From Escherichia coli (lineage in GTDB: Bacteria > Pseudomonadota > Gammaproteobacteria > Enterobacterales > Enterobacteriaceae): 51,845 nucleotides of DNA. The stretch lies in assembly GCF_003334315.1 (NCBI RefSeq), contig NZ_QOWR01000030.1; one strand, given 5' to 3'. This document shows, piece after piece, positions 1-886 of this stretch. Positions within the stretch are counted from its first letter, which is position 1, and each line of letters begins with the position of its first letter. Under the pieces are notes generated by a model. It was not told where the DNA came from. It saw only the letters and a list, made by a program, of their open reading frames with translations, and ran no database searches. Made by a program: the position numbers and the translations under genes.

Positions 1-67
1 AAACCACCGCAAAAGCATCCGGCGGCAGGCCGTCCACTTCCAGTGTGAAACGTAATCCGGTTGACAT
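1..67 (-). CDS. 5' end of a VgrG-like (rhs-element associated) gene; body lies outside the window
   Basis: Reverse complement of 1..67 reads ATG TCA ACC GGA ... = MSTGLRFTLEVDGLPPDAFAVV, which matches the N-terminus of VgrG proteins as I recall it. Only 22 codons visible. Confidence 0.5.
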   Translation of the reverse strand, partial: MSTGLRFTLEVDGLPPDAFAVV

Positions 68-886
68 AGCAACCTCCGTGAAAATGAATAATAATCCGCA
101 CATATTGCATGTACAACATGTCGGGCGGATGAGATAAGCGAGTCGACATCTGGCGTTACCGGGGAATATCAGAAAAATGTCATGGTTATGTGATGATTTA
201 GTCTGGGATTTTACTTCAGAGAAACGGGTGTCTGTTTAGTCAACAAAATAATCACAAACGCAACGGATGGGTTCTCGACGTTATTCACGACAGGCTCGTA
301 CATTACAGCGAGTAATAAAAAACCTGATATGCAAAGTCAAACCAATATTCATAATGTCTTTTTATTCACAACAATAAATAATTCAATAACAATCATTGAA
401 ATGAATGATGGTTTGTATAAGGAATATACGCTACCGCCCCACCCTGATAACATGATCTGCACATTGCCATCTTAACGTCGTTAAACACTAGCTTAATAGT
501 GGATATTTCAAATTAGGAATTTATTAAATTCACCTGATGAATATAATAAGCAAATAGCATAGAAAATAATGACAACTCCCCCGAGGGGACCATTTCCAAA
601 GCACTGCACCACCACCTGGTGCCGGATGATCTTGCTTCAGTGGTAAGAGTACCTGATGCATTGTTCCCAAAATGGTGTTTTCCCCTGCCCCTCCAATAAT
701 GTGTAGCTCTCACTTGATAATCTATTGATTAGGTTATATTAAGAATCAACATTTAAAATACATCCATTTTCTTGAATAAATCAACATGTTTATTAATCAA
801 TTGCTGTTTTAGCTCTGACTCATCAAGCTCTCCATATTTGTCCTACAGATAATTGCGAATAAATACAGAGAACGCCATTTATCCTT

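What the first reader, a model, noticed from the sequence alone, without database searches (positions are those of the whole stretch)
1..886. VgrG-like gene start followed by ~800 bp of AT-rich sequence with no convincing gene
The first 67 bases encode (minus strand) MSTGLRFTLEVDGLPPDAFAVV, a VgrG-type N-terminus, implying a vgr/rhs (type VI secretion-related) element just outside the window. Between it and yncH lies an unusually AT-rich ~800 bp stretch with only one weak 66-aa ORF (513..713). This is a likely island boundary and a candidate for H-NS-silenced promoter sequence or an unannotated small RNA.
Basis: partly seen in the sequence, partly recalled or inferred. Interest (0 to 1): 0.3.

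Follow-up and report, generated by a model that had tools for sequence, protein, structure and literature searches.

The report
RfaH-ops leader of a vgrG–rhs operon

Summary
Bases 67..1 (minus strand) encode a VgrG N-terminus. Bases 68-886 are 37% G+C against 49% for the window. The 66-aa ORF is spurious: it is frameshifted in 5 of 8 orthologs.

The gap has two parts. Bases 68 to about 575 form a leader that travels with vgrG; a second vgrG-rhs island next to cusS has an 82%-identical copy. Bases 576-886 are single-copy, yncH-linked spacer.

Inside the leader, a block at 425-548 is conserved in front of at least five different T6SS cargo sets. Its core on the vgrG-sense strand reads GGCGGTAGCGTA (438..427). 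This is the RfaH ops element. It matches, in sequence and in upstream flank, the ops upstream of c1882 at the same ansP-yddH locus of CFT073. There, published ChIP-seq shows H-NS binding in wild type, and RfaH and sigma-70 binding once H-NS and StpA are removed. K-12 data also show H-NS and RNA polymerase binding in this spacer.

Best reading: an H-NS-silenced promoter plus an ops site that lets RfaH carry RNA polymerase through the long vgrG-rhs operon. There is no evidence for a small RNA. This is a new member of a known kind; interest is moderate.

The parts
1..67 (-). First 22 codons of vgrG. This is the yncH-linked (RhsE-type) vgrG, called 'vgrG2' in EHEC nomenclature.
   Evidence: Translation; RefSeq annotation; Pfam domains on a full-length ortholog; naming from PMC7216683.
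73..77 (-). Shine-Dalgarno GGAGG, 5 nt before the vgrG ATG (67..65).
   Evidence: Read directly from the sequence.
68..575 (-). Non-coding leader that travels with vgrG. It is multi-copy in E. coli (median 2, up to 4 places per genome). It is about 82% identical to the leader of the cusS-linked vgrG-EagR-Rhs island. Among yncH-locus orthologs it shows almost no polymorphism.
   Evidence: No leader ORF keeps both a start codon and an open frame in the paralog.
425..548 (-). Conserved 'head block'. It lies upstream of co-directional T6SS cargo in every context examined: vgrG-Rhs; metallopeptidase-like gene plus lipoprotein gene plus vgrG-EagR-Rhs; PAAR-vgrG-DUF4123 (CFT073, and a PAAR/DUF2169 set in XYEH3783); small ORFs plus GNAT; and an ISEc1 remnant.
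   Evidence: A 65-bp core is present in 5291 of 5426 complete E. coli genomes.
427..438 (-). RfaH ops element GGCGGTAGCGTA. It matches 11 of 12 consensus positions (G12 is A) and lies on the non-template (sense) strand for vgrG, 360 nt before the ATG.
   Evidence: It is identical to the RfaH-bound ops upstream of CFT073 c1882 (PMC9765446 Data set S2A) and has a homologous flank. GCGGTAGC and the GGTAGNNT motif are invariant in all eight contexts. The 40-nt core is present in 4739 of 5426 genomes.
469..474 (-). Conserved -10-like hexamer TAAGAT (TATGAT in the CFT073-type), 30 nt upstream of ops. This is a candidate promoter with a predicted start near 462. Inferred, not shown.
   Evidence: Alignments; PWM hit TTAAGC-16-TAAGAT with score 5.2, which is not above chance on its own.
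312..340 (-). Promoter predicted for rhsE by Shimada et al. (TTGACT-17-TATTAC). It lies downstream of ops and is disrupted by an 8-bp deletion in the cusS-type copy.
   Evidence: PMC3946193; position read from the sequence; paralog alignment.
167..184 (+). Weak PhoB site TATCAGAAAAATGTCATG, from K-12 ChIP-seq (score 1), in a region flagged as H-NS-bound. It is not conserved in the cusS-type copy.
   Evidence: PMC10294691 Table 1, coordinate 1527862; paralog alignment.
576..886 (.). Single-copy spacer linked to yncH. It is present in 3576 genomes, is ordinarily polymorphic, and has no recognisable gene or RNA.
513..713 (-). Spurious 66-aa ORF. It has a GTG start and no Shine-Dalgarno sequence, and it straddles the repeat boundary. 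A 1-bp indel frameshifts it in 5 of 8 orthologs.
577..589 (.). G+C-rich palindrome TCCCCTCGGGGGA, exactly where similarity to the cusS-type leader ends. It could be a weak terminator for yncH transcripts, but the T-tract is poor.
887..1099 (-). yncH (DUF5445), the flanking gene. It is even more AT-rich (G+C 0.305).

Best explanation
Bases 68-886 are non-coding. They form the control region of a vgrG-rhs T6SS effector operon that is transcribed on the minus strand.

The distal part (576-886) is locus-specific spacer downstream of yncH. The proximal part (68 to about 575) is a leader that belongs to the cargo island.

At the head of the leader sits a conserved module (425-548). It has an AT-rich promoter region that H-NS (with StpA) normally silences. 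About 25-35 nt further on it has an ops element (GGCGGTAGCGTA, 438..427).

When initiation occurs, RNA polymerase pauses at ops and the non-template strand recruits RfaH. RfaH then excludes NusG and Rho and couples the ribosome. This lets transcription run through the roughly 360-nt AT-rich leader and the 6.7-kb H-NS-coated vgrG-rhs-immunity operon.

Shown by others: H-NS and RNA polymerase binding in K-12, and H-NS, sigma-70 and RfaH binding at the orthologous site in CFT073. Shown here: orthology, strand, and conservation of the ops across different cargo sets. Inferred: the promoter position, and RfaH dependence in this particular vgrG-rhs context.
For: (1) The region is non-coding. RefSeq annotates no gene there. 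The 66-aa ORF is frameshifted in 5 of 8 orthologs. No leader ORF keeps both a start codon and an open frame in the paralog. There is no NCBIfam hit.

(2) An ops 12-mer lies at 427-438 on the sense strand. The same 12-mer, with the homologous flank GTGCAGATCATGTyATCAGGGTrG, is the ops upstream of CFT073 c1882. That site sits at the same locus, between ansP/yncG and yddH.

(3) At that CFT073 site, RfaH ChIP-seq signal and an upstream sigma-70 peak appear in the hns stpA double mutant, and H-NS covers the site in wild type (PMC9765446).

(4) Deviations at ops positions 10 and 12 are tolerated. The kps ops (GGCGGTAGCATA) and the hly ops (GGCGGTAGCATG) bind RfaH in wild type.

(5) GCGGTAGC and the GGTAGNNT motif are invariant in eight contexts whose flanks and downstream genes differ, and the element is always in sense orientation 5' of the cargo. 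The 40-nt core is present in 87% of complete E. coli genomes.

(6) In K-12 the spacer binds RpoD holoenzyme and H-NS in SELEX and is flagged as H-NS-bound in vivo.

(7) RfaH and ops are required for expression of the EAEC T6SS (bioRxiv 10.1101/2025.02.08.637259).

(8) The leader (68-424) varies at 2.2% of sites among nine strains, against 8-10% in the flanking DNA. This is consistent with constraint.
Against: No transcription start site is known for this leader. No promoter-like match in the gap scores above what shuffled AT-rich sequence gives.

The promoter that Shimada et al. predicted for K-12 rhsE (340..312) lies downstream of ops and would bypass it.

RfaH binding at the CFT073 ortholog was seen only after H-NS and StpA were removed, so the natural inducing signal is unknown.

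G12A weakens the consensus pause signal. The cusS-type copy (AGCGGTAGCATA) deviates at three positions.

Nothing has been measured in a strain that carries this exact vgrG-rhsE cargo.

The low polymorphism of the leader could reflect recent recombination rather than selection.
Confidence: 0.7

Rival explanations
1. The gap is an ordinary H-NS-silenced AT-rich promoter region. The ops-like 12-mer is an inert relic here, and RfaH plays no part in expressing this vgrG-rhs operon.
For: The ops differs from consensus at G12. The start site is unknown, and the best published promoter prediction lies downstream of ops. The CFT073 locus is described as 'cryptic' and is RfaH-bound only without H-NS and StpA. 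Five other near-ops matches occur in the window at roughly chance level: 6 found against 2.6 expected.
Against: GCGGTAGC and the GGTAGNNT motif are invariant across eight diverged contexts while the flanks diverge. The identical 12-mer at the orthologous site does recruit RfaH. Of 42 CFT073 ops-like sites, exactly the 8 that lie in leader regions bound RfaH. The site in the window is in a leader.
Confidence: 0.2
2. The conserved head block is mainly a recombination anchor. It would be a short conserved flank at the edge of a hypervariable cargo region, allowing homologous exchange of T6SS effector cassettes, and regulation would be secondary.
For: The block sits exactly where similarity among cargo types ends, directly after GCGGTAGCGT. 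At least five cargo sets follow it at one chromosomal locus. The drop in polymorphism begins near 545. Two independent deletions (K-12 and DLI.5a) end within the leader, at about 135 and about 156.
Against: The backbone side of the block is also variable: yncH and yncG may be present, absent or decayed. So the block is an island of conservation, not just a flank. No second direct or inverted copy lies at the far end of the islands. No integrase is nearby. The block also moved with its cargo to the cusS locus. A role in recombination would not exclude the regulatory role.
Confidence: 0.15
3. The gap encodes an unannotated small protein (the 66-aa ORF at 513..713) or a small RNA.
For: The ORF is open in the window and in three orthologs. 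In the other five, the frameshifted version is still open for 56 aa. The patch at 576-713 has somewhat higher G+C.
Against: A 1-bp indel changes the C-terminal half in 5 of 8 orthologs, and the protein alignment shows amino-acid replacements at several positions in the N-terminal half (synonymous versus non-synonymous changes were not tallied). The ORF has a GTG start and no Shine-Dalgarno sequence. It spans two segments with different evolutionary histories. It has no NCBIfam family. The curated K-12 record lists no feature between yncH and rhsE. No Rfam match was found even at E<=10. The best RNA-fold z-score is -2.45 among 66 windows. The only terminator-like site is weak.
Confidence: 0.04

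Closest known systems
ops leader of CFT073 c1882-c1889, a cryptic RfaH-regulated T6SS cargo locus (Hustmyer et al. 2022, PMC9765446)
   Same: It occupies the same chromosomal locus (ansP/yncG to yddH). It has the identical 12-mer GGCGGTAGCGTA and a homologous 30-40 nt upstream flank. The orientation is the same, 5' of co-directional T6SS cargo, at a similar distance to the first gene (313 nt against 360 nt). Both regions are H-NS-bound.
   Different: The cargo differs: PAAR-VgrG-DUF4123 and a second PAAR-VgrG-M35 set in CFT073, against vgrG-Rhs core-dsORF here. CFT073 lacks yncH and has a decayed yncG. Sequence downstream of the ops is unrelated. RfaH binding has not been measured for the vgrG-rhsE version.
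Classical RfaH operons with ops (and JUMPStart) leaders: waaQ/rfaQ, rfb/wzx, hly, kps, tra
   Same: All have a 12-nt ops on the non-template strand of an untranslated 5' leader, in a long, AT-rich, H-NS-bound, horizontally acquired operon that encodes envelope or secreted factors.
   Different: G12 is A here, whereas rfaQ and wzx have the full consensus. Beyond the ops and a preceding CAGGG, the flank does not match the rfaQ or wzx JUMPStart flanks. The cargo is a T6SS spike plus an Rhs toxin.
ops elements inside T6SS main clusters: EAEC sci1 ops1/ops2 (Taillefer et al. 2025 preprint) and CFT073 hcp-tssH
   Same: They show RfaH-dependent read-through of T6SS genes from an intergenic ops. The EHEC hcp3-vgrG3 spacer also holds a perfect ops.
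   Different: Those sites lie within the structural gene cluster and share no similarity with this leader beyond the 12-mer. Here the ops heads an orphan vgrG island far from any T6SS cluster.
EHEC h3R, the hcp3-vgrG3 regulatory spacer (PMC13141884)
   Same: It is a regulatory non-coding region directly upstream of a nearly identical vgrG 5' end, and its expression is repressed by H-NS.
   Different: It is not homologous. Similarity to the window stops 11 bp upstream of the ATG (window 3-78 only). It is 209 bp long and not AT-rich.

Membership tests
RfaH-dependent ops leader | A 12-nt ops (consensus GGCGGTAGnnTG / GGCGGTAGCGTG; most conserved part GGTAGNNT) on the non-template strand | tested here: met
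   GGCGGTAGCGTA at 438..427 on the vgrG-sense strand matches 11 of 12 positions, with GGTAGCGT intact. The consensus is as quoted. The identical variant is RfaH-bound in CFT073, and the kps variant GGCGGTAGCATA also ends in A.
RfaH-dependent ops leader | The ops lies in a transcribed, untranslated 5' leader, downstream of the promoter and upstream of the first ORF | tested here: inconclusive
   The ops lies in non-coding DNA 360 nt upstream of vgrG. The start site is unknown. A conserved -10-like TAAGAT lies 30 nt upstream, but no promoter match beats chance, and the published K-12 prediction lies downstream of the ops.
RfaH-dependent ops leader | RfaH occupancy, and rfaH- or ops-dependent expression of distal genes | not testable with these tools
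   There is only orthologous evidence: RfaH ChIP-seq signal over c1882-c1889 in CFT073 lacking hns and stpA (PMC9765446).
RfaH-dependent ops leader | The target is a long, AT-rich, H-NS-bound, horizontally acquired operon | tested here: met
   The leader has G+C 0.36. The operon comprises vgrG (2.1 kb), Rhs core (4.2 kb) and dsORF. H-NS binding in K-12 comes from the literature. Presence is patchy and the cargo is variable.
JUMPStart element (39 bp) | A conserved upstream half in addition to the ops | tested here: inconclusive
   Compared with the CFT073 wzx and rfaQ flanks, only 'CAGGG' directly before the ops is shared. The 39-bp consensus itself is recalled from memory, not from a tool.
VgrG (T6SS spike) | gp27-like Phage_GPD, OB-fold Phage_base_V and gp5 C-terminal domains | tested here: met
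   These domains were found on the full-length FORC_043 ortholog, whose 5' end (window 1-67) shows no difference from the window in the ortholog alignment. Only 22 codons lie inside the window.
Rhs element (vgr - Rhs core - dsORF - H-rpt/ISAs1) | An Rhs core ORF with a variable tip, a downstream immunity-type ORF, and an ISAs1-family H-repeat | tested here: met
   This composition is seen in genomes identical or near-identical to the window. The element lies outside the window itself, and in strain E41 it is truncated.
H-NS-silenced xenogeneic region | AT-rich DNA with demonstrated H-NS occupancy | tested here: met
   AT-richness was tested here. Occupancy comes from the literature for K-12 and CFT073. 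A scan for the H-NS nucleation motif was uninformative.
Small regulatory RNA | A discrete promoter, a stable structure or terminator, and conservation as a unit or an Rfam family | tested here: not met
   There is no Rfam match at E<=10, no significant fold, and one weak terminator-like site. Transcript data were not available.

The most novel reading that the evidence does not exclude
One conserved promoter-plus-ops 'head' may serve as a universal expression socket for interchangeable T6SS effector cargo in Escherichia. It is found at the ansP-yddH hotspot, and a copy was carried to the cusS island. Ops sites also precede vgrG in the main cluster. RfaH could therefore co-ordinate the T6SS machine and all orphan vgrG islands, overriding H-NS silencing in one step. 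All three EHEC-type vgrG genes would then be RfaH-controlled. This could explain why swapping the promoter of vgrG1 alone did not yield protein in the EHEC promoter-swap experiments.
Probability: 0.35. Interest if true: 0.55.

Novelty: new member of a known kind. Interest (0 to 1): 0.38.

Why it matters
How E. coli switches on its orphan vgrG-rhs toxin islands is unknown. Recent EHEC work calls their control an 'unknown post-transcriptional mechanism'.

An RfaH ops sits at the head of the yncH-linked island, and a variant sits at the head of the cusS-linked island. The ops-bearing 40-nt core is conserved in 87% of complete E. coli genomes in front of at least five different cargo sets. This gives a concrete and cheap hypothesis to test: RfaH-dependent anti-silencing.

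It would enlarge the small RfaH regulon. It would also explain why a conserved non-coding core persists next to a hypervariable region, even in K-12, where only an rhsE fragment remains behind it.

The principle, and the orthologous site in CFT073, are already published. This is an extension, not a discovery of kind.

Tried and rejected
- **Small protein.** The 66-aa ORF and all leader ORFs were rejected on frameshifts, loss of start or frame in the paralog, and the absence of any family.
- **Small RNA.** Rfam found nothing and fold z-scores were unremarkable.
- **Homology to EHEC h3R.** Rejected; similarity ends 11 bp upstream of the ATG.
- **Leader as a decayed hcp or effector gene.** tblastn with Hcp3, an Hcp1-family protein, the PSJ-42 hypothetical proteins and EagR gave nothing better than E=0.06.
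- **Patch 576-713 as an inverted vgrG 5' relic.** This was suggested by a 21-nt inverted repeat. It was rejected: the match is 17 of 21 nt, E=0.075, with no extension at DNA or protein level.
- **Block as a terminal repeat or att site.** No second copy lies at the other end of any island.
- **Sigma-70 PWM and consensus scans.** No hit exceeds shuffled controls. The first candidate, TTATCA-16-TATATT (450..423), has the ops inside its spacer and was dropped as the primary promoter.
- **Sigma-54, CRP, LexA, IHF, Fur and PhoP motifs.** Checked by eye only; none was convincing.
- **H-NS nucleation motif scan.** No enrichment.
- **Genome-contig scan for the core.** It returned only Escherichia, plus one hit in Legionella fairfieldensis that shows no other similarity to the window and is probably chance.
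- **Plasmid collection.** Only mislabelled chromosomal records matched.
- **Published start-site tables.** The Thomason 2015 paper is not held, the Conway 2014 supplements are not held, and the Cappable-seq GTF was cut when stored (only the first ~247,000 characters of a ~2 Mb file are held), so it was not searched.
- **RpoN and RpoS SELEX peaks listed as 'yncH>ydcD'.** In the older coordinate system these fall inside rhsE and ydcD, not in this gap.

Full report
**Locus and observation**

The window is E. coli chromosome in the reverse of the K-12 orientation. The order is ansP (+), yncG (-, 1175-1792), yncH (-, 887-1099), an 819-bp gap (68-886), and then the start of a minus-strand gene at 67..1.

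That start translates to MSTGLRFTLEVDGLPPDAFAVV. RefSeq annotates it as VgrG in every listed genome that carries it. A full-length ortholog has the Phage_GPD, OB-fold and gp5 C-terminal domains.

In a genome identical to the window over 25 kb, vgrG is followed by an RHS core protein, dsORF-e4, an IS1 fragment and an ISAs1-family element before pptA. This is a classical RhsE-type element, whose vgrG is called 'vgrG2' in EHEC. In another 100%-matching strain (E41) the vgrG is truncated.

The gap has 37.1% G+C against 49.0% for the window, and only 3.5% of equal-sized windows are as low. The low G+C continues through yncH.

**The gap has two parts with different histories**

Bases 68-580 are multi-copy in E. 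coli. They occur in 4614 of 5426 complete genomes, with a median of 2 and up to 4 places per genome. Bases 581-886 are single-copy and occur in 3576 genomes.

A second copy of bases 1 to about 575 (82% identical) lies upstream of a different vgrG-EagR-Rhs island next to cusS. K-12 has no such island at cusS, and its genome holds only one copy of the leader, so the leader belongs to the island.

Similarity to the cusS copy ends at about 575, at the palindrome TCCCCTCGGGGGA.

Among nine strains compared at the yncH locus, 68-424 varies at 2.2% of sites and shows only singletons. Differences fixed between groups of strains begin at about 545 and continue through yncH at 8-10% of sites.

In K-12 and in strain DLI.5a, two independent deletions join Rhs-core remnants to the leader at about 135 and about 156. 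K-12 therefore keeps bases 136-886.

**No gene and no recognisable RNA**

The 66-aa ORF (513..713) has a GTG start and no Shine-Dalgarno sequence. It straddles the two segments. A 1-bp indel frameshifts it in 5 of 8 orthologs, and the protein alignment shows amino-acid replacements at several positions.

No ORF in the leader keeps both a start codon and an open frame in the cusS-type copy. None has an NCBIfam family. RefSeq annotates nothing in the gap, including in the curated K-12 record.

Rfam gave no match at E<=10. The best RNA-fold z-score is -2.45 among 66 windows. The single terminator-like site is weak.

**A conserved head block**

Strains of B2 type, E. albertii and another Escherichia species lack yncH, and mostly lack yncG as well. 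They still carry a 105-124 bp block homologous to window 425-548, between ansP and whatever cargo follows.

More variants turned up later. One has a PAAR and a DUF2169 gene (XYEH3783). One has a string of small ORFs directly after yncG (wlxctx60). CFT073 has two PAAR-VgrG sets.

In every case the cargo genes are co-directional with the block and lie downstream of it. Similarity between cargo types stops directly after the motif GCGGTAGCGT.

The 65-bp core is present in 5291 of 5426 genomes. A 40-nt version is present in 4739 of 5426 genomes, in 1-3 copies each. In the species-representative scan it was found only in Escherichia.

There is no second copy at the far end of the islands. The leader is not a decayed hcp or effector gene.

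**The core is an RfaH ops element**

On the vgrG-sense strand the core reads GTGCAGATCATGTTATCAGGGTGG-GGCGGTAGCGTA (462..427). The last 12 nt match the ops consensus GGCGGTAGCGTG at 11 positions, and the most conserved part, GGTAGNNT, is intact (consensus as quoted).

Hustmyer et al. (PMC9765446) list exactly this 12-mer at CFT073 1715753-1715764, 313 bp upstream of c1882. It is one of only eight ops sites in CFT073 that lie in operon leaders and give an RfaH ChIP-seq signal.

I fetched that region. It is the same locus, between ansP with a decayed yncG and yddH, and the 30-40 nt upstream of the ops are homologous to the window.

At that site H-NS covers the DNA in wild type. A sigma-70 peak and RfaH appear in the hns stpA double mutant. 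The authors call it a cryptic RfaH-regulated locus whose initiation is silenced by H-NS.

Variants ending in A, or with A at position 10 (kps, hly), bind RfaH in wild type. The cusS-island copy reads AGCGGTAGCATA.

A 2025 preprint shows that rfaH and two ops sites are needed for expression of the EAEC T6SS cluster.

In K-12, the yncH>rhsE spacer binds RpoD holoenzyme and H-NS in genomic SELEX. A weak PhoB ChIP peak at window 167-184 is flagged as lying in H-NS-bound DNA.

**Mechanism proposed**

An H-NS-silenced promoter lies in the distal, AT-rich half of the block. A -10-like TA(A/T)GAT is conserved 30 nt upstream of the ops in all variants (window 474..469). The CFT073 type has TTCGCA-18-TATGAT at this position.

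Polymerase pauses at the ops, and RfaH loads there. Elongation then becomes resistant to Rho and to H-NS filaments through the leader and the roughly 6.7-kb operon.

The promoter position is an inference. No promoter-like match beats shuffled sequence. The published prediction for K-12 (340..312) lies downstream of the ops and is not conserved in the paralog. RfaH dependence of this particular cargo has not been measured.

**Comparison and novelty**

The element works like the classical RfaH leaders (rfaQ, rfb, hly, kps). It is the ortholog of the CFT073 c1882 leader.

It is not homologous to the EHEC hcp3-vgrG3 spacer 'h3R'. That spacer nevertheless contains a perfect ops that its authors do not mention.

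No paper in the held library links RfaH to rhsE, vgrG2 or orphan vgrG islands. I therefore file this as a new member of a known kind.

**Verdict**

The best explanation is an H-NS-silenced promoter plus an RfaH ops leader, with confidence 0.7. Interest is 0.38.

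Noticed in passing
L009 32770-32781 (E. coli O157:H7 Sakai, hcp3-vgrG3 spacer): A perfect consensus ops, GGCGGTAGCGTG, lies in sense orientation about 82 nt before the vgrG3 ATG. This is inside the 'h3R' regulatory spacer studied in PMC13141884. That paper never mentions RfaH or ops. It may explain part of the spacer's behaviour.
   Followed up: partly
window ~135 and ~156; L002 (K-12) and L004 (strain DLI.5a): Two different deletions removed vgrG and the 5' part of the Rhs core. They joined Rhs remnants of different lengths (2049 and 1131 bp) to the leader within about 20 bp of each other. 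As a result, K-12's rhsE pseudogene still sits behind the promoter and ops head.
   Followed up: partly
L008 ~7001-7010 (ST131) compared with L020 3020-2985 (XYEH3783): ST131-type genomes lack the ops. The sequence jumps from the ATCAGGG that precedes the ops to the AAAGAT... that follows a second ATCAGGG about 28 bp downstream in the PAAR-type leader. This suggests a short deletion between the two repeats. Only ISEc1 remains as 'cargo'.
   Followed up: partly
window 887-1792 (yncH, yncG); L007, L008, L010, L021, L022: yncH and yncG are themselves variable. Both are absent from PSJ-42, ST131 and Escherichia sp. E1V33. Only a yncG fragment remains in E. albertii. yncG is a pseudogene and yncH is missing in CFT073. 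yncG is present without yncH in strain wlxctx60. yncH is the most AT-rich stretch (G+C 0.305).
   Followed up: partly
window 68-424: The proximal leader is the least polymorphic stretch among yncH-locus orthologs: 2.2% variable sites, against about 9% in the adjoining vgrG 5' end and in yncH. Yet it is the least conserved part between the yncH-type and cusS-type copies (65-82% identity). Whether this reflects constraint or a recent recombination sweep is unresolved.
   Followed up: partly
window 167-184: A published weak PhoB ChIP-seq site (TATCAGAAAAATGTCATG) lies here. It is on the strand opposite to vgrG transcription and is not conserved in the cusS-type leader, so it is probably one of the 'transcriptionally inert' sites of that study.
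   Followed up: partly
L009 32108-32120 (Sakai, 15 bp upstream of hcp3) and window 472-484: The head-block palindrome TTAACGACGTTAA has a one-mismatch copy (TTAACCACGTTAA) just upstream of the hcp3 ribosome-binding site in the main T6SS cluster. About 0.05 such matches are expected by chance in 48 kb. No significance is claimed.
   Followed up: no
L007 5863-6752 (strain PSJ-42): Two unannotated-function genes lie between the head block and vgrG. One encodes a 176-aa protein with an HEMMH zinc-peptidase-like motif. The other encodes a 120-aa protein with a lipoprotein-type signal. They look like a T6SS effector/immunity pair.
   Followed up: no
L001 10137-12067 (strain E41, 100% identical to window 1-1200): In this strain vgrG is cut after 1626 bp and abuts a yddH fragment. 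A further deletion has removed the rest of the Rhs element, pptA and the ISAs1 copy.
   Followed up: no
window 9-29 and 615-635: A 21-nt inverted similarity (17 of 21 nt) links the vgrG 5' coding sequence and the higher-G+C patch of the spacer. It does not extend and is not significant (E=0.075).
   Followed up: yes
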